A DNA stretch of 64,000 bases, from NCBI RefSeq assembly GCF_003334305.1, contig NZ_QOWS01000003.1; one strand, given 5' to 3'. Source of the DNA: Escherichia coli. GTDB lineage: Bacteria; Pseudomonadota; Gammaproteobacteria; Enterobacterales; Enterobacteriaceae. Positions within the stretch are counted from its first letter, which is position 1, and each line of letters begins with the position of its first letter. The position numbers and the translations under genes were made by a program. Of the stretch, positions 2 through 5,460 are shown piece after piece. The notes beneath the pieces are model-generated. The model had not been told where the DNA came from, did no database searches, and saw only the letters and a program-made list of their open reading frames with translations.

Positions 2-1543
2 TCATGCATCCTCCATCGGCGTAAACAGGCTACTTTCCATCAGGCGTGGGTGCTTGATAATTGGACGGAAAGCCATATACGGCAGAATGTCGCGCTCAAT
101 CTCCACACCCGGCGCGATTTCAATTAATTCAACGCCTTCTGCCGTTAACTGGAATACTGCGCGTTCAGTGATATACAACACTTCCTGACCACTTTGCTGT
201 GCGTAGGCGGCGCTAAAAGTGATTTTTTCCACCTGGGTAACCAGTTTAGGGATTTGACCTGACTGGGTGATATGCAAGCCATCTGGCGTTACATCAATCT
301 TGCTACCTTTGGCGTCGAACGTGCCGCAGAACACCACTTTACGGGCGTTTTGCGCAATTTCGAGAAATCCGCCGGGGCCAATCAGATTGCCATTGAGATG
401 GGAGACGTTGACGTTACCGTACTGATCCATCTCTCCCATGCCGAGGAAGGTGATATCGATCCCTCCGCCACTGTAGAACTCAAATTGATCGAGTGATGGA
501 ATAATGGCATCGGCGTTGCGGGCACAACCAAACAGAGCATCATCAAGCATCATGCCGTTATGTACGCCTTGCTCGACGCTCAGCCATAAACTTTGGTAAG
601 GAACGCCTTCGCGCAGCGCTACGCCTGGAATACCGCCAGGAATACCAAAGCCAAAGTTGGTTGAAGCGCCAGCCACCAGTTCGCGTGCTGCCCGACGGGC
701 AATCAGGCGGCGCACCGGATGACTAACCAGTTCAATAGCGTCGTTAGAACTCAGACGGCGATGTTGACCGCTAATGGTCAGGTCGTAACCGCCAAGATAG
801 GTTTGCGGTTGTTCGCGGTGTTCAACGATGCCATCAACCAGAATGCCCGGTAATTTGACCCGGCGTGGTTCAATCGCGCCAGCTTCCAGCACATCGCGTA
901 CCTGTACGAACACTTTGCCGCCGCTGTTGTGTGCTGCCAGCGCCATGGAATAGCTATCCATATCAATCGCTTCTTCTTCAAGGCTGACGTTGCCTCGAGG
1001 ATCGGCATAAGTGCCACGCAAAATCGCGTAATCCACTTTGAAAGGGCGATAACGAAGTTTGGTTTCACCATCGATTTCAATCAGTTCTACCAGGTCGTCG
1101 GTAGTGCATTCATTCGACTTACCGCCGCCATTGCGTGGATCAACAAACGATCCCAGCCCAACGTGGGTAAAAAGCCCCGGACGTCCGGCGCCGATCTCCC
1201 GTAGCAGTGCCTGAATCACGCCACCAGGAAAGCAGTAGGCTTCAATCGTGTTATTTTTTACCAGCGCCTGCATTTTGGGCGACCAGGTAAAGTGCCCGGC
1301 AATAATGCGTTTGAGCATCTCTGCGTGCGCAAAACGATTAGTGCCTTTGCAGTCGCGATCGCCAATACCCAGCGAGTGGATTAGCGTCAGGTCGCGAGGG
1401 TGTCCGGTTTGCAGGAAACGCGCTTCAATAGCAGCCAGAATATGGTCCGCTTCCACCATACCGCCGCCGTTACCGCTAATAGCAATAGTCGCACCGTCCT
1501 GAATTTGCGCCGCCAGTGCCTCGGCGGTTGTTATCTTACGCAT
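2..1543 (-). CDS. family I CoA-transferase, fused alpha/beta (YdiF / acetate-CoA-transferase-like), 513 aa
   Basis: Complete ORF with ATG at 1541-1543 and stop at 2-4; glycine-rich motifs typical of CoA-transferases (ISGNGGG, GFGIPGG); last gene of a four-gene minus-strand cluster. Confidence 0.7.
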   Translation of the reverse strand: MRKITTAEALAAQIQDGATIAISGNGGGMVEADHILAAIEARFLQTGHPRDLTLIHSLGIGDRDCKGTNRFAHAEMLKRIIAGHFTWSPKMQALVKNNTIEAYCFPGGVIQALLREIGAGRPGLFTHVGLGSFVDPRNGGGKSNECTTDDLVELIEIDGETKLRYRPFKVDYAILRGTYADPRGNVSLEEEAIDMDSYSMALAAHNSGGKVFVQVRDVLEAGAIEPRRVKLPGILVDGIVEHREQPQTYLGGYDLTISGQHRRLSSNDAIELVSHPVRRLIARRAARELVAGASTNFGFGIPGGIPGVALREGVPYQSLWLSVEQGVHNGMMLDDALFGCARNADAIIPSLDQFEFYSGGGIDITFLGMGEMDQYGNVNVSHLNGNLIGPGGFLEIAQNARKVVFCGTFDAKGSKIDVTPDGLHITQSGQIPKLVTQVEKITFSAAYAQQSGQEVLYITERAVFQLTAEGVELIEIAPGVEIERDILPYMAFRPIIKHPRLMESSLFTPMEDA

Positions 1544-1552
1544 ACAATTTCC

Positions 1553-2335
1553 TTATTGATTATGGAAGCTTACGCTACTTTTTTCGGCAAAGGCGCGCGT
1601 CGCCTGCTGGCAATCCTGAGTGGCGGACATTAATCCGGCCAGTAGCTGGTGCGGGTAATCGGCATGTTTATTTTCCAGTGCCAGAATCAGTTGCTTAATA
1701 TGTGCAAGCGCCACCGGACCGCATTTTTCCAGCTGCGCTAACTGGTTCGCCATCCAGCTTTCCACCTGTTCTTTTTCTACCACTTCATCAATTAAATTCG
1801 CCGCCTGGGCTTCCTGCGCCGTCAGGCGTTTACCCAGCATCAGCATCTGGCGACCGACCACCGGACCAACCTGATTAAGCACACGTTCAATGCCCATCCA
1901 GCCAGGCACCATGCCGAGCATCACTTCCGGGTTAGAGAATTTCGCGCCGGGGCGGGCAATACGAATATCGCAGCACAAGGCAAGTTCAATACCACCGCCG
2001 ATGGTATGACCGTTGAGATTCGCAACGGTTAATTGGGGTAAGTTGCGCAGGCGATTAAAAACGTCATTACCGCGTTTAATCCATTTTCTGCCCATATCTA
2101 ATGGCGAATAGGCTGACCACGATTTAATATCGCCACCCGCACAAAAGAATTTATCGCCGGTTGCCGTTAATTCGACTAATCGTAATGTGGTGTCGTTTTC
2201 AATTTCATTTAAATAATGGTCGAGAGATTCGATCATCTCTTCGTTAATAGCATGACATTTATCTTCACGGTTCAATGTCAGGCGGCAGGAAGCTGCCGCT
2301 CTGCTGAACAGAACGGGTTGGTCACTCATGATCAT
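1553..2335 (-). CDS. enoyl-CoA hydratase/isomerase (crotonase superfamily), 260 aa
   Basis: ORF-track protein has crotonase-like core (GGGIELALCCDIRIA); 9-nt gap to downstream CoA-transferase; alternative ATG two codons downstream. Confidence 0.7.
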   Translation of the reverse strand: MIMSDQPVLFSRAAASCRLTLNREDKCHAINEEMIESLDHYLNEIENDTTLRLVELTATGDKFFCAGGDIKSWSAYSPLDMGRKWIKRGNDVFNRLRNLPQLTVANLNGHTIGGGIELALCCDIRIARPGAKFSNPEVMLGMVPGWMGIERVLNQVGPVVGRQMLMLGKRLTAQEAQAANLIDEVVEKEQVESWMANQLAQLEKCGPVALAHIKQLILALENKHADYPHQLLAGLMSATQDCQQATRAFAEKSSVSFHNQ

Positions 2336-2338
2336 TCC

Positions 2339-3181
2339 TTAACAATAATGCGCGATGCGATCGACGCTAATATCCAGCGTGCTGTTAATATCTTTCTGCC
2401 ACCAGTAAGGCGAGAATATTTCCAGTTCAATAGCACCATTAAATCCGGCGTTTTCAACCAGCCGACGAATTGACGGAATATTGATGACGCCATCTCCCGG
2501 CATACCACGGTCATTGACCAGATCAGTGGTCGGCACTAACCAGTCGGAAACATGAAACGCGAGGATGCGTTTTCCGGCACGCAGGATCTGACTGGCGAGA
2601 TCCGGGTCCCACCAAACATGGTAGACATCTACCGCCACGCCGAGGCCAAATTCGCCATCGGGATCGAGTTCATCACACCAGTCCAGCGCCTGACGTAACG
2701 TGCACAGACAGGAACGATCGGCTGCGGTCATCGGGTGCAGCGGCTCCAGTGCAATTGGCACGCCGACATCTTTCGAATGTGGCAGCAACTGGCGAATCCC
2801 TTGTTTCACTTGTTCCCGCGCTTCATATAGATCTTTAGTGCCCGTTGGCAGACCGCCAACCACCTGCATATAACAGGCGGCATTCAGTACAGCGGCGTCG
2901 TCCAGCGCCCGGCGGTTATCGTCAATCGCCAGTTTGCGCTCCGCCAGCGTCGGTGCGGTGTAGTAGGTGCTACGGCACAAACCGGAAACGTTCATCTTAC
3001 TGGCGGCAAGCTGACGGGCGATCTGCTGGAGATCTTCGCCCTGCAACTCCCTGCGCCAGGGGGCAATTGCGCCAATACCGCGTGCAGCGCAGGCATCAAT
3101 AATGGCGGGTAGCGGCGTTTTATAGCCCAGTGTTGCGGTATTGATACTGAATAAATCCGGGCGTTGTAACAGATCTCTCAT
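2339..3181 (-). CDS. sugar-phosphate isomerase/epimerase-like TIM-barrel protein (xylose-isomerase-like fold), 280 aa
   Basis: ORF-track protein resembles the AP-endonuclease-2 / xylose-isomerase-like TIM-barrel family; tightly packed in the same operon (3-nt gap to hydratase). Confidence 0.55.
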   Translation of the reverse strand: MRDLLQRPDLFSINTATLGYKTPLPAIIDACAARGIGAIAPWRRELQGEDLQQIARQLAASKMNVSGLCRSTYYTAPTLAERKLAIDDNRRALDDAAVLNAACYMQVVGGLPTGTKDLYEAREQVKQGIRQLLPHSKDVGVPIALEPLHPMTAADRSCLCTLRQALDWCDELDPDGEFGLGVAVDVYHVWWDPDLASQILRAGKRILAFHVSDWLVPTTDLVNDRGMPGDGVINIPSIRRLVENAGFNGAIELEIFSPYWWQKDINSTLDISVDRIAHYC

Positions 3182-3190
3182 GATTCAGCC

Positions 3191-3982
3191 TCAGAAGCGC
3201 GGCATACTTAAGCCGCCGTCGATGGCGACCGCCTGACCACAGGTGTAAATCAGTTTACCTTCCGCCATCGCGCGGACGGTGGAAGCAATATCAGCCGGAT
3301 AACCCCAACGTCCCCACGGCACCAGACCTTTGGCAATCAGTTCGTCGTAATAAGCCGTTGCCGGAATAGTCATATCAGTTTTGATGAGACCTGGGCGCAC
3401 TTCATAAACGCCAATTTGTTCATTACAAAGGCGAGCAGCAAATAGACGAGCAGCGGCAGAAACGGCGGTTTTGGCAATGGTGTATTCGCCGCGATTCATC
3501 GCCAGCATGATGGCGTTGATGGAACTGACGAAAATAATCGAGCGGTGCGGCAGTTCCGCTTCCGGTTTCGGCTGTGCCAGTAAGCGCTTACTGAATGCCT
3601 GAGCAAGGAAGAACGGCGCGCGGGTGTTAATGGCAATGTTTTGATCGAAGCTGTCTGGTTCGAGGTCGAGGAGGTCACCGCGTTTTTTCACTGAAATCCC
3701 GGCGTTATTGAGCAGGCAGTCCAGACGCCCCCACTGGTTTTGCGCCGCGTCGAGCATCTCTTCATGCAAGGAGAGATCGCCGACATCGGCAGGGAAGCAA
3801 ATGACTTCCACGCCTTCTGCCAAACATTCTTGTTGTGTGATATGCAGTTTTTCTACGCTGTCGGCATCGGGACGATCGTTAATCAGCAGGTTAAACCCGC
3901 CACGAGCAAGCTCCAGCGCACAGCCCTTTCCAATACCACGAGCGGCTCCGGTAATCACGGCAACTGGACGAGTGGATTTCAT
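3191..3982 (-). CDS. short-chain dehydrogenase/reductase (SDR), 263 aa
   Basis: N-terminal TGAARGIGKG Rossmann motif and Y-x3-K catalytic motif (YTIAK); first gene of the minus-strand cluster, divergent from the TetR gene. Confidence 0.75.
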   Translation of the reverse strand: MKSTRPVAVITGAARGIGKGCALELARGGFNLLINDRPDADSVEKLHITQQECLAEGVEVICFPADVGDLSLHEEMLDAAQNQWGRLDCLLNNAGISVKKRGDLLDLEPDSFDQNIAINTRAPFFLAQAFSKRLLAQPKPEAELPHRSIIFVSSINAIMLAMNRGEYTIAKTAVSAAARLFAARLCNEQIGVYEVRPGLIKTDMTIPATAYYDELIAKGLVPWGRWGYPADIASTVRAMAEGKLIYTCGQAVAIDGGLSMPRF

Positions 3983-4047
3983 ACAATAACCCTCTTTTGA
4001 ATATCGTTTTCTTTAGTGATGATTAGCTTGCGACTGGCAGGTAAAAA

Positions 4048-4071
4048 GATCAACCATCTAGTTGGTTGATC
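4048..4071. promoter_or_regulatory. 24-bp near-perfect palindrome GATCAACCAtctagTTGGTTGATC in the SDR/TetR divergent intergenic region; candidate TetR operator
   Basis: Read directly in sequence between the divergent SDR start (3982) and the TetR gene. Confidence 0.5.
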
Positions 4072-4191
4072 TGCGAGAGTGATCACAGGTAATTTGATAA
4101 CTCAATGAAATTACGACTTTTATCCTTTTTGCTGTCGCTGAGATCAAATCCGGTTATGATAGCCATCACGAAGAGGAAGTGGGGAAGTGGA

Positions 4192-4830
4192 ATGTATCTT
4201 GATACCAGTCACGCACAAAACCTGAAGGAAAAATTGCTGCTATGTGCGGTTAATGAATTTGCCGAATATGGTTATGAAGGGGCCAGAGTAGATAATATTG
4301 TTAAGGCAGCAGGGTGTAGTAAACAGACGGTTTATCACCACTTTGGTAATAAAGAAAATTTGTTTATTGAAGTACTGGAATATACCTGGAACGATATTCG
4401 CGAAAAAGAGAGAGAGCTTGACATTTCAGGGCTTTCTCCGGTTATTGCGATCGAGAAAATAATTGATTTTACTTGGGATTATTACATCAATAATCCGTGG
4501 TTTTTAAAAATTGTCCATAGTGAAAACCAAAGTAAGGGTGTGCATTATAAAAAATCAAAACGCCTCGCTGAAATTAACCATGCACATTTGCAGTCAATGG
4601 CTTCGTTATTAGAAGAAGGGCAGCGACAGAAAACCTTTAAGAAAGATATTGATCCCTTACAAATCAATATTAATATCGCCGCACTGGGTGCATATTATTT
4701 AATAAACCAGTACACACTGGGGATGGTTTATCACATTAGCATGGTTTCACCTGAGGCTTTGGAAGCCAGACGCAGAGTGATCAAAGAGACCATCCTGAGC
4801 TGGCTTTTGGTGAACCCTGCCCGTGGGTAA
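4192..4830 (+). CDS. TetR-family transcriptional regulator (about 212 aa from ATG 4192; ORF track offers upstream ATG 4105)
   Basis: TetR-type N-terminal HTH ([19 protein letters not shown]); GGAAG Shine-Dalgarno upstream of ATG 4192; the 29-aa extension from 4105 looks non-native; divergent from the catabolic cluster. Confidence 0.65.
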
Positions 4831-5460
4831 TCAGCGTGCGCGGATGAAATTACCATCAGGTTGGCGGGTGAACAGTACTTGCTGATTATTTCCCGTATCA
4901 ATGGTTAAGCCGGTAACCACCCCATTCGCATTTTGACGGATTTTAACAATCTGACCATTTTGCAGGTTACTGAGCGGTTTATCCGCGCCCTCGACCTGGG
5001 CCATAGCGTACACATCTGTAGGCGGCAAATTATGGTCGCGGAACAGCTGGGCAAGGGTCTTGCCTGGTTCTACGCGATATGTCCGCCACTGTTGATCGAT
5101 ACCACTTTCCGGTTGGAAAGATTGTGTCTCTGCAACAGGTGGCTCTTCAGGTTGACCTTCCTGAATAGGTTCCGGCGCGACCGGGGCGACCTGATCCGGA
5201 TCGTTTTGCGGCGTCACTAAATGTGCCTGTAGCTGTGCTTCACCTGGGGGGGGTGATTGCATATCTAACTGCGCTTCGCGGGTGACAACAGGCATCTGGC
5301 GTGTTTCATCTCCAGGCAGAAGAATACCGATAATCAGCACTATTGCCGCAATAATGATTCCCCGGCGATGCATCGGCGGCAACGGGTCCATGAGGCGAAA
5401 GTTATCTGGTGCGTGCCAGATTTTCACCAGAGTTGGTTTTAGTTCAAAGCGCCCAGGCAT
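4831..5460 (-). CDS. ytfB: OapA/LysM-domain cell-division protein YtfB
   Basis: Protein MPGRFELKPTLVKIWHAPDNF... recognised as E. coli YtfB; ATG 5458-5460 preceded by GGAGG; ORF-track start 5493 is an upstream alternative. Confidence 0.85.
   Translation of the reverse strand: MPGRFELKPTLVKIWHAPDNFRLMDPLPPMHRRGIIIAAIVLIIGILLPGDETRQMPVVTREAQLDMQSPPPGEAQLQAHLVTPQNDPDQVAPVAPEPIQEGQPEEPPVAETQSFQPESGIDQQWRTYRVEPGKTLAQLFRDHNLPPTDVYAMAQVEGADKPLSNLQNGQIVKIRQNANGVVTGLTIDTGNNQQVLFTRQPDGNFIRAR

What the first reader, a model, noticed from the sequence alone, without database searches (positions are those of the whole stretch)
4048..4071. 24-bp palindrome in the divergent promoter region of the accessory cluster
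GATCAACCAtctagTTGGTTGATC sits between the SDR gene start and the TetR gene. A long near-perfect inverted repeat at this position is the expected operator of the adjacent TetR regulator, which would repress the operon until a ligand (probably the substrate or a CoA intermediate) binds.
Basis: seen in the sequence. Interest (0 to 1): 0.4.

Follow-up and report, generated by a model that had tools for sequence, protein, structure and literature searches.

The report
Predicted YtfA (TetR) operator in E. coli
The palindrome is real and is very probably the DNA site where the neighbouring TetR-type repressor YtfA shuts off an uncharacterised acid-degrading operon by sitting on its CRP-dependent promoter, which is an ordinary kind of switch not yet described for this regulator.

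Summary
GATCAACCATCTAGTTGGTTGATC lies at 4048-4071, pairs at 11 of 12 positions, and extends to 13-nt arms at 4047-4072. Only one other palindrome of this quality occurs in the 64 kb, and that one is a GC-rich terminator.

The window is E. coli. The locus is an accessory operon between rplI and ytfB, encoding an SDR, a TIM-barrel enzyme, an enoyl-CoA hydratase, a CoA-transferase, a flavoprotein and a transporter. It is divergent from ytfA, an intact TetR-family gene that is a pseudogene in K-12.

The interpretation as an operator is supported by comparison, not by experiment:
- The core TCAACCA-N6-TGGTTGA (4050-4069) is the most conserved block of the intergenic region across eleven alleles and genera.
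- It keeps a fixed distance from the SDR start even where the spacer to ytfA is doubled.
- The same half-sites, 2 bp apart, flank YtfA homologues of 33-41% identity in alphaproteobacteria that sit next to unrelated genes.

New here: a CRP site (4072-4087) abuts the palindrome. Its ETEC H10407 allele is listed as the predicted site at a published in vivo CRP ChIP-seq peak. The left arm also contains an inferred -35 hexamer, which points to a class I CRP promoter.

The right-hand GATC is specific to this allele. Binding, ligand and transcription start are untested. This is a new member of a known kind, of modest interest.

The parts
4048..4071 (.). The reported 24-bp palindrome GATCAACCATCTAGTTGGTTGATC (11 of 12 pairs). 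It extends to 4047-4072 with 12 of 13 pairs.
4050..4069 (.). Conserved operator core TCAACCA-N6-TGGTTGA, matching the family half-sites at 14 of 14 positions. This is the proposed YtfA binding site.
   Evidence: It is the best hit in the window and in the whole cluster. Invariant columns of the 11-sequence alignment concentrate here. The half-sites are shared with alphaproteobacterial homologues.
4050..4065 (.). Alternative 16-bp register TCAACCA-tc-TAGTTGG, with half-sites 2 bp apart. It scores 12 of 14 here and 13 of 14 in alleles with G at 4060. This is the spacing used by the alphaproteobacterial homologues and by the RutR box.
4072..4087 (.). CRP binding site TGCGAGAGTGATCACA (TGCGA-N6-TCACA), abutting the palindrome, with its centre at 4079.5.
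   Evidence: It is conserved as TGTGA-N6-TCACx in Salmonella, Klebsiella, Leminorella and Entomohabitans. The ETEC H10407 allele TGCGATAGTGATCACA is listed as the MEME-predicted site at an in vivo CRP ChIP-seq peak between an ETEC-specific gene and ytfA (PMC4287617). I verified that sequence in H10407.
4048..4053 (-). Inferred -35 hexamer TTGATC of the operon promoter, inside the left arm of the palindrome.
   Evidence: Inference. The hexamer is invariant except in one metagenomic locus and lies exactly 17 nt from the inferred -10 in all 11 sequences.
4025..4030 (-). Inferred -10 hexamer CAAGCT (CATYTT in other genera). The bases at -11 (A) and -7 (T) are invariant. The inferred transcription start is near 4017-4018.
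   Evidence: The invariant columns A4025, T4029 and G4030 stand in an otherwise variable stretch. The spacing is constant. The simple consensus scan did not find it. No transcription-start data are available.
3191..3982 (-). First gene of the regulated operon: an SDR, annotated as 3-ketoacyl-ACP reductase.
2..3181 (-). The rest of the operon inside the window: a sugar-phosphate isomerase/epimerase-type TIM barrel (2339-3181), an enoyl-CoA hydratase (1553-2335) and a family I CoA-transferase (2-1543). The flavoprotein and TRAP transporter genes lie beyond the window edge.
4192..4830 (+). ytfA, an intact TetR/AcrR-family regulator of 212 aa (TetR_N plus TetR_C_29). It is the proposed repressor.
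4155..4160 (+). Conserved TATGAT, about 31 nt upstream of the ytfA ATG. It is the likely ytfA -10 and lies about 95 nt from the operator.
   Evidence: It is conserved as TATGAT, TAAGAT, TATAAT or TATAGT in all orthologous loci. This is an inference.

Best explanation
The palindrome is the operator of YtfA, the TetR-family repressor encoded divergently.

Proposed mechanism:
- YtfA recognises TCAACCA/TGGTTGA half-sites through its helix-turn-helix.
- The site lies at about -29 to -54 of the promoter that drives the SDR / TIM-barrel / hydratase / CoA-transferase / flavoprotein / transporter operon.
- It covers the -35 hexamer (TTGATC, which is the left arm itself) and fills the gap up to a CRP site centred near -61.5.
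- Bound YtfA would therefore block sigma-70 region 4 and the alpha-CTD and CRP contacts.
- An unknown ligand, presumably the carboxylic-acid substrate or a CoA thioester made from it, would release the repressor. CRP-cAMP would then activate transcription when glucose is absent.

Shown: the sequence, its rarity, its conservation, its fixed position relative to the operon, the association of the motif with the regulator family, and CRP occupancy of the neighbouring site in ETEC (from the literature).

Inferred: the promoter hexamers and transcription start, repression, the ligand, and whether one or two dimers bind.
For: 1. Rarity. Two palindromes of this quality occur in 64 kb, against 0.12 expected, and the other is a terminator.

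2. Position. The site lies in a 209-bp divergent spacer next to an intact TetR gene.

3. Footprint. In an alignment of 11 orthologous spacers, where TetR identity to this window's YtfA runs from about 59% upward, mean column identity is 68%. The invariant columns cluster in GATCAACCA..T.GTTGGT, in the CRP half-sites and at two bases of the inferred -10. In E. coli genomes the 36 nt around the site are at least 90% identical in all 3123 carriers, while the surrounding 401 nt are only 80-90% identical in 2743 of 3150.

4. Anchoring. AACCA begins 70-76 nt from the SDR start in all 11 loci. This includes Entomohabitans, whose spacer is 429 bp instead of about 215.

5. The motif follows the regulator.
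- I scanned 12 alphaproteobacterial loci with YtfA homologues of 33-41% identity for the E. coli half-sites.
- This gave 16 hits of at least 12 of 14 positions in 147 kb. All lie within about 135 nt upstream of the tetR gene or just downstream of it.
- Four of these hits are perfect TCAACCAACTGGTTGA.
- In 645 kb of loci holding unrelated TetR genes there were 4 hits, none adjacent to the TetR gene.
- In the two loci I annotated (L017, L027) the neighbours are amidase and, in L017, ABC-transporter genes, and tblastn finds no SDR/TIM/hydratase cluster in any of the twelve.
- Reverse test: of 120 metagenome stretches holding the exact 16-mer, 9 carry a YtfA-like gene within 241 nt.

6. The recognition helix is conserved between the E. 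coli and alphaproteobacterial proteins: K44, Q45, V47, Y48, H49 and H50 are invariant.

7. There is a single site. No second match of 13 or more positions occurs in the window or in the full cluster of strain H15. The site is single-copy per genome.

8. A CRP site adjoins the palindrome, and its ETEC H10407 allele lies at a published in vivo CRP ChIP-seq peak.
Against: - There is no direct evidence of binding, repression or induction. No paper on a YtfA operator was found.
- The promoter is inferred only from conservation. Its -10 in this allele (CAAGCT) is poor, and the consensus scan found no promoter.
- The register is ambiguous. The 14-of-14 register puts the half-site centres 13 bp apart, which is wide for a single TetR dimer. 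The 2-bp register favoured by the family scores only 12 of 14 here.
- The outer right GATC is not conserved.
- Three of the 12 alphaproteobacterial loci show no site.
- 110 of the 120 exact 16-mers in metagenomes have no YtfA-like gene on the stretch retrieved.
Confidence: 0.8

Rival explanations
1. The palindrome is bound by a different transcription factor, not YtfA. One candidate is RutR, a TetR-family protein present in all E. coli whose box TTGACCAnnTGGTCAA shares the ACCAnnTGGT core. Another unlinked regulator is also possible.
For: The RutR consensus is confirmed in PMC2475637. The site shares the core and the two positions (4 and 13) that paper calls most important. NCBIfam finds weak similarity between the YtfA HTH and RutR.
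Against: By my own count the site matches only 8 of 14 positions of the RutR consensus (9 of 14 in other alleles). The motif travels with YtfA homologues into alphaproteobacteria, and the outer bases (TCAA versus TTGA) differ consistently. The site occurs only where ytfA is present.
Confidence: 0.06
2. The inverted repeat acts as an RNA hairpin on the minus strand, either as an intrinsic terminator or as a leader attenuator ahead of the SDR gene.
For: The scan reports a terminator-like site on the minus strand: 10 pairs, 4 of them G-C, followed by TTTTT. The RNA folds at -13.6 kcal/mol with a z-score of -2.3.
Against: - No co-oriented gene ends upstream of it. The next minus-strand gene, ytfB, ends at 4831, beyond the opposite-strand ytfA.
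- The stem is AT-rich and only 4 shuffles in 200 fold as well, which is a modest result.
- The T-tract is broken in Leminorella and Entomohabitans.
- With the inferred promoter the hairpin lies upstream of the transcription start and would not be transcribed.
- The real terminator in this window looks quite different.
Confidence: 0.03
3. The conservation reflects only promoter architecture, namely a -35 hexamer plus an alpha-CTD or UP-like region next to CRP. On this reading the symmetry is incidental and no repressor binds.
For: The left arm coincides with the inferred -35 hexamer, and the right arm lies where the alpha-CTD would sit in a class I CRP promoter (inference).
Against: An alpha-CTD region does not require invariant TTGGTT. 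The same two half-sites recur as perfect palindromes next to distant YtfA homologues with different promoters and different genes.
Confidence: 0.05
4. YtfA binds the site but works as an activator or co-activator with CRP rather than as a repressor.
For: The site lies upstream of the core promoter and is contiguous with CRP, a position that some activators occupy. The inferred -10 is weak, so the promoter needs activation.
Against: The site overlaps the -35 hexamer, and CRP already supplies a class I activator. By established knowledge of the family, the great majority of characterised TetR-family proteins beside divergent catabolic operons are ligand-released repressors.
Confidence: 0.05

Closest known systems
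RutR and the RutR box (E. coli TetR-family regulator of pyrimidine catabolism)
   Same: It is a TetR-family protein with a 16-bp palindromic box, TTGACCAnnTGGTCAA. The box has the same ACCAnnTGGT core and the same 2-bp half-site spacing as the YtfA-family consensus TCAACCAnnTGGTTGA (PMC2475637).
   Different: The outer bases differ (TTGA versus TCAA), and the window site matches only 8 of 14 positions of the RutR consensus. RutR has many targets, several of them inside genes. The YtfA site is single-copy and sits in one promoter. The C-terminal domains are unrelated beyond the fold (the RutR match covers residues 12-65 only).
TetR/tetO and similar divergent TetR-family repressor and target-gene pairs
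   Same: The regulator gene is divergent from its target across a spacer of about 200 bp, with a palindromic operator in the spacer overlapping promoter elements. Ligand-released repression is expected from family knowledge.
   Different: In tet, two operators control both divergent promoters. Here there is a single site anchored to the target promoter and about 95 nt from the likely ytfA -10, so autoregulation is not indicated. CRP co-control is also added.
QacR and its 28-bp IR1 operator (two dimers on one long palindrome)
   Same: The palindrome is longer than a single TetR dimer normally spans. Outer half-sites 13 bp apart centre to centre, plus inner pseudo-half-sites offset by 4 bp, would fit two staggered dimers. 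This comparison is recalled from the literature and not tested.
   Different: There is no evidence on stoichiometry here. The inner half-sites are weak (5 of 7 and 4 of 7), and the alphaproteobacterial relatives use a plain 16-bp site.
Class I CRP-dependent promoters such as lacP1 (CRP at -61.5)
   Same: A CRP site with a good consensus is centred 29 bp upstream of the centre of the inferred -35 hexamer (28 bp in lac). The -10 is weak. The controlled genes are catabolic.
   Different: In lac the repressor operator lies downstream of the start. Here it lies between CRP and the -10 and covers the -35. The transcription start has not been mapped.
Acyl-CoA-sensing TetR regulators (KstR2, Bacillus FadR/YsiA, PaaR, DesT)
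   Same: These are TetR-family repressors of CoA-dependent catabolic operons. Some databases label YtfA orthologues as 'KstR2'.
   Different: That label is an automatic annotation. YtfA scores far below every NCBIfam equivalog cut-off, for example 43 bits against 200 for FadR. Its closest solved structure is an uncharacterised structural-genomics protein, 3NPI. The ligand is unknown.

Membership tests
TetR-family repressor operator | An inverted repeat of roughly 15-30 bp | tested here: met
   The site is a 24-bp palindrome (11 of 12 pairs) that extends to 26 bp (12 of 13). It is rarer than chance.
TetR-family repressor operator | It lies next to an intact TetR-family gene, typically in a short divergent spacer | tested here: met
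   The spacer is 209 bp. ytfA encodes 212 aa with TetR_N and TetR_C_29.
TetR-family repressor operator | The site co-varies or co-occurs with the regulator across genomes, independently of the target genes | tested here: met
   It is conserved in 11 orthologous loci. The same half-sites flank homologues of 33-41% identity next to amidase and ABC-transporter genes. Control loci are negative. The reverse search gave 9 of 120.
TetR-family repressor operator | It overlaps core promoter elements of the regulated gene | tested here: inconclusive
   The left arm is the inferred -35 hexamer TTGATC, 17 nt from the inferred -10 in all loci. No transcription-start data exist, and the consensus scan found no promoter.
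TetR-family repressor operator | The protein binds the site and a ligand releases it | not testable with these tools
   This needs EMSA or footprinting and ligand screening. No published data were found.
Class I CRP-dependent promoter | A match to TGTGA-N6-TCACA | tested here: met
   TGCGAGAGTGATCACA at 4072-4087 matches 9 of 10 core bases. Leminorella has both half-sites perfect.
Class I CRP-dependent promoter | CRP occupies the site in vivo | not tested
   Taken from the literature. The ChIP-seq peak in ETEC H10407 has the predicted site TGTGATCACTATCGCA between an ETEC-specific gene and ytfA (PMC4287617). I verified the sequence in that genome. That allele differs from the window by one base in the N6.
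Class I CRP-dependent promoter | The site is centred near -61.5 relative to the transcription start | tested here: inconclusive
   The centre is at 4079.5 and the inferred start at 4017-4018, giving -61.5 or -62.5. The start is inferred only.
Intrinsic (rho-independent) terminator | A G+C-rich stem-loop followed by a U-tract, downstream of a co-oriented gene | tested here: not met
   The hairpin and TTTTT are present. Only 4 of 10 pairs are G-C, and no co-oriented gene lies upstream. The T-tract is not conserved.
RutR box | A match to TTGACCAnnTGGTCAA | tested here: not met
   It matches 8 of 14 positions by my own count against the consensus.
Dispersed repeat (REP/BIME-type palindromic element) | Many copies per genome | tested here: not met
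   There is one place per genome (median 1, highest 2) in 3123 E. coli genomes, and one copy in the window.

The most novel reading that the evidence does not exclude
The operator may be composite rather than a simple dimer site. It has one left half-site and two overlapping right half-sites 4 bp apart (TCAACCA-tc-TGGT-TGGTTGA). The same architecture recurs upstream of the Belnapia homologues (CCAACCATTTGGTTGGTTGATAG). This could mean two staggered YtfA dimers, as with QacR, or a register switch.

In addition, the left arm, which is also the inferred -35, and the CRP site each contain a Dam GATC. Occupancy by YtfA and CRP could therefore leave a heritable methylation pattern and make expression of the operon bistable.
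Probability: 0.1. Interest if true: 0.5.

Novelty: new member of a known kind. Interest (0 to 1): 0.3.

Why it matters
About 58% of complete E. coli genomes carry this operon (3150 of 5426), as do some Salmonella, Klebsiella, Leminorella and other enterobacteria. K-12 lacks it, so neither its substrate nor its regulator has been studied.

A defined operator, a predicted promoter and a documented CRP input give a direct experimental handle. Deleting ytfA or mutating the site should derepress the pathway. The YtfA-operator pair can be used as a reporter to screen for the inducing compound and so identify the substrate.

The family consensus TCAACCAnnTGGTTGA also predicts targets for a whole subfamily of TetR_C_29 regulators. 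Beyond that, this is a conventional repressor-plus-CRP catabolic switch.

Tried and rejected
- Consensus promoter scan of 3900-4300. It found no sigma-70 match, so the promoter had to be inferred from conservation. Several hand-picked alternatives did not line up with the invariant columns or with CRP phasing and were dropped. These were a class II geometry with a GATCTT -10, a TAATCA -10, GATATT, and a plus-strand TTGATC-N18-TAATTT promoter for ytfA.
- Literature. Exact-sequence searches for the palindrome found nothing relevant. Searches for 'ytfA' returned only inventories of TetR genes, K-12 pseudogene mentions and the CRP ChIP-seq table. One search for the pathway failed for lack of capacity and a second found nothing relevant. 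The substrate therefore remains unknown.
- NCBIfam and PDB sequence searches did not place YtfA in any characterised equivalog. The 'KstR2' name on some orthologues is not supported.
- The genome-contig scan returned few enterobacterial orthologues. Salmonella, Leminorella and three metagenomic loci had to be fetched one by one, and one locus had no DNA available.
- The terminator, dispersed-repeat, RutR-box and chance readings were considered and rejected. See the rival explanations and the membership tests.
- I could not decide between the 2-bp and 6-bp registers or between one and two dimers.

Full report
**1. Observation**

One search shows GATCAACCATCTAGTTGGTTGATC at exactly 4048-4071. 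Eleven of the twelve symmetric pairs are complementary. The exception is T4057/T4062. The repeat finder extends the symmetry to 13-nt arms at 4047-4059 and 4060-4072, 92% complementary.

I scanned the whole window for palindromes of this quality: 13-nt arms, at least 12 of 13 complementary, no spacer. There are two. One is this site. The other, at 55809-55834, is a GC-rich hairpin followed by a T-run between two convergent ORFs, so it is an ordinary bidirectional terminator. Sixty dinucleotide-preserving shuffles gave 0.12 such palindromes per window on average. The 24-mer has no second copy in the window at up to three mismatches.

**2. Where it is**

The window is E. coli chromosome and is 100% identical to strain H15 over 2.5 kb. 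The annotation of that strain places the palindrome in an accessory cluster between rplI and ytfB.

On the minus strand the cluster runs in this order:
- an SDR (window 3191-3982)
- a sugar-phosphate isomerase/epimerase-type TIM barrel (2339-3181)
- an enoyl-CoA hydratase (1553-2335)
- a family I CoA-transferase (2-1543)
- beyond the window edge, a 693-aa FAD_binding_2 flavoprotein and a TRAP transporter

On the plus strand, starting at 4192, is a 212-aa TetR/AcrR regulator with TetR_N and TetR_C_29 domains. This gene is ytfA. A survey of TetR-family genes lists it as present in some E. coli strains only (PMC6790063), and in K-12 it is a pseudogene.

About 58% of complete E. coli genomes carry the locus (3150 of 5426). 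NCBIfam places none of the enzymes in a characterised pathway, and YtfA scores far below every equivalog cut-off. Its closest solved structure is an uncharacterised structural-genomics TetR protein. The substrate is unknown. A carboxylic acid activated by CoA transfer is a reasonable inference from the gene content.

**3. Conservation**

Six E. coli alleles that differ by up to 15% across the spacer all keep GATCAACCATCT(A/G)GTTGGTTGAT. In four of them the last base of the right-hand GATC is A.

I collected orthologous loci from E. whittamii, E. albertii, Klebsiella spallanzanii, Entomohabitans, Salmonella, Leminorella and three metagenomic contigs. In these the YtfA orthologues are about 59-84% identical to this window's protein. 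Every locus long enough to show it has the same five enzyme genes in the same order.

In an alignment of the SDR-proximal 130 nt from 11 sequences, mean column identity is 68%. The invariant columns fall in three places:
- G-A-(T)-C-A-A-C-C-A..T.G-T-T-G-G-T, which is the palindrome
- the two halves of a TGYGA-N6-TCAC motif immediately to its right
- three bases at 4025, 4029 and 4030

Inside E. coli, the 36 nt around the palindrome are at least 90% identical in all 3123 carriers and occur once per genome. The surrounding 401 nt are only 80-90% identical in 2743 of them.

The motif AACCA-N6-TGGTT begins 70-76 nt from the SDR start codon in all 11 loci. This holds in Entomohabitans, where the spacer to ytfA is 429 bp instead of about 215. 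The element therefore belongs to the operon's promoter, not to ytfA's.

**4. The motif follows the regulator**

The genome scan also returned 12 alphaproteobacterial loci whose TetR is 33-41% identical to YtfA over nearly its whole length. They lack the SDR/TIM/hydratase cluster. In the two I annotated (L017, L027) the neighbours are amidase and ABC-transporter genes.

I scored every position of these loci against the E. coli half-sites TCAACCA and TGGTTGA at spacings of 2 and 6 bp.
- In four loci the best hit in 12.5 kb is a perfect TCAACCAACTGGTTGA in the gap between tetR and the next gene. In L027 it lies about 23 nt upstream of the amidase start.
- Nine of the 12 loci have hits of at least 12 of 14 positions: 16 hits in 147 kb. 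All lie within about 135 nt upstream of tetR or just downstream of it.
- As a control, 645 kb of loci holding unrelated TetR genes gave four such hits, none adjacent to the TetR gene.
- As a reverse test, I searched metagenome contigs for the exact 16-mer. The other 110 do not, as expected for a 16-mer in a very large collection. Nine is far more than chance for so rare a gene, by my own estimate.

The recognition helix is conserved between the enterobacterial and alphaproteobacterial proteins: K44, Q45, V47, Y48, H49 and H50 are invariant. This is the strongest available evidence that YtfA-type proteins read this half-site.

**5. Two registers**

In this window the half-sites match 14 of 14 positions at the 6-bp spacing (4050-4069) and 12 of 14 at the 2-bp spacing (4050-4065). 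In alleles with G at 4060 the 2-bp register scores 13 of 14.

The right side is effectively TGGT-TGGTTGA, which is two overlapping right half-sites 4 bp apart. The Belnapia upstream sites (CCAACCATTTGGTTGGTTGATAG) share this extended form.

From general knowledge of TetR-DNA complexes, the recognition helices of one dimer are about 35 Å apart. That fits half-site centres 9 bp apart, as in the 2-bp register and in the RutR box TTGACCAnnTGGTCAA (PMC2475637). It fits centres 13 bp apart poorly. So either one dimer uses 4050-4065, or two staggered dimers cover the 24-bp palindrome as QacR does on IR1. I cannot decide this in silico.

The right-hand GATC is present only in this allele and one other fetched allele.

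**6. Promoter context (new)**

Immediately to the right of the palindrome lies TGCGAGAGTGATCACA (4072-4087), a 9-of-10 match to the CRP core. It is conserved in the other genera, and in Leminorella both half-sites are perfect.

Haycocks et al. 2015 (PMC4287617) list an in vivo CRP ChIP-seq peak in ETEC H10407 between an ETEC-specific gene and ytfA, with the predicted site TGTGATCACTATCGCA. This is the reverse complement of the H10407 and REL606 allele of this very site. I verified the sequence in the H10407 genome next to the palindrome.

On the minus strand, the left arm reads TTGATC (4053 to 4048). Exactly 17 nt downstream lies CAAGCT (4030 to 4025), which is CATYTT in other genera. The 17-nt spacer varies in sequence, but the 16 nt between ATGC and GATCAA are constant in length in all 11 loci. 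The invariant bases at 4029 and 4025 are the A at -11 and the T at -7 of that hexamer.

This gives an inferred start near 4017-4018 and places CRP at about -61.5, the geometry of a class I promoter such as lac. The palindrome then spans about -29 to -54. It covers the -35 hexamer and fills the space up to CRP, a classical occlusion position. All of this paragraph is inference from conservation. The simple consensus scan found no promoter, and no transcription-start data are available.

A conserved TATGAT (4155-4160) about 31 nt before the ytfA ATG is the likely ytfA -10. It is about 95 nt from the operator, so autoregulation through this site is not indicated.

No second site exists in the window or in the whole cluster of strain H15.

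**7. Rivals**

- Terminator or attenuator. The scan flags the minus-strand hairpin followed by TTTTT, and the RNA folds at -13.6 kcal/mol with z = -2.3. However, no co-oriented gene ends upstream, the stem has only 4 G-C pairs, the T-run is not conserved, and it would lie upstream of the inferred start.
- RutR cross-binding. The core is shared, but only 8 of 14 positions match the consensus.
- Pure promoter architecture without a repressor. This does not explain the invariant right arm or the recurrence of the half-sites next to distant homologues.
- Dispersed repeat. Excluded by the single copy per genome.
- Activator rather than repressor. Not excluded, but unlikely given the overlap with the -35 hexamer.

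**8. Verdict**

The palindrome is real and non-random. It is very probably the operator of YtfA on a CRP-dependent catabolic promoter (confidence 0.8).
- The conserved core is 20 nt.
- The site is tied to the operon promoter, with CRP alongside.
- The ligand is unknown.

It is a new, undescribed member of a well-known kind of switch. Its practical value lies in opening an unstudied, widespread E. coli and Salmonella accessory pathway to experiment. It is not mechanistically surprising. Interest 0.3.

Noticed in passing
window 4072-4087: There is a CRP site, TGCGAGAGTGATCACA, directly abutting the palindrome. It is conserved across genera. Its ETEC H10407 allele is the predicted site at a published in vivo CRP ChIP-seq peak (PMC4287617).
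   Followed up: yes
window 55809-55834: This is the only other palindrome of comparable quality in the window (AAAAAGGCCGGAGCATGCTCCGGCCTT). It is GC-rich, flanked by A- and T-runs, and lies between convergent ORFs 54577-55800 (+) and 55856-58711 (-). It looks like an ordinary bidirectional intrinsic terminator.
   Followed up: partly
window 4192-4830 (ytfA) compared with 2-3982 (enzyme genes): This window's YtfA is only 83-84% identical to the majority E. coli allele, and its closest relative is a Citrobacter MAG protein. The adjacent enzymes are 92-98% identical to those of E. whittamii and E. albertii. The differences lie mostly in the ligand-binding domain, and the HTH is nearly unchanged. 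About 370 of the 3150 carrier genomes have this allele type (at least 95% identical). This suggests recombinational replacement or fast evolution of the regulator.
   Followed up: partly
window 4048, 4068, 4081, 4142: There are four Dam GATC sites in the 209-bp spacer, where about 0.8 would be expected. One lies in the left arm and inferred -35, one in the right arm (not conserved in most other alleles), and one in the centre of the CRP site (GTGATCAC). Protein occupancy could leave them unmethylated.
   Followed up: no
window 4089-4114: There is a second, weaker inverted repeat, GTAATTTGAT / ATGAAATTAC, with 10-nt arms, 90% complementary and a 6-nt gap. Parts of it (TAAC...ATGAAA) are conserved in other genera. 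Its function is unknown.
   Followed up: no
L001 3823-6385, and hit H8: In strain H15 an IS3 element splits the TRAP large-permease gene of the cluster. In strain KFu021 an ISVsa5 element sits in or next to the TetR gene. The cluster is therefore being inactivated in some lineages, and it is deleted in K-12, leaving the ytfA pseudogene.
   Followed up: no
L087, L088, L089 and L091 compared with L001: The transporter at the far end of the operon differs. It is a TRAP system (DctPQM type) in E. coli but a single MFS permease in Salmonella, Leminorella and the metagenomic loci. The five enzyme genes and ytfA stay the same.
   Followed up: no
L013, L017, L018 and L027 (alphaproteobacteria), about 640-790 nt after the tetR start: A perfect TCAACCAACTGGTTGA lies in the gap downstream of tetR, ahead of an amidase gene in L027 and of ABC-permease and amidase genes in L017 (the neighbours in L013 and L018 were not annotated). 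A weaker copy lies upstream of tetR. This predicts the regulon of an uncharacterised TetR_C_29 subfamily.
   Followed up: partly
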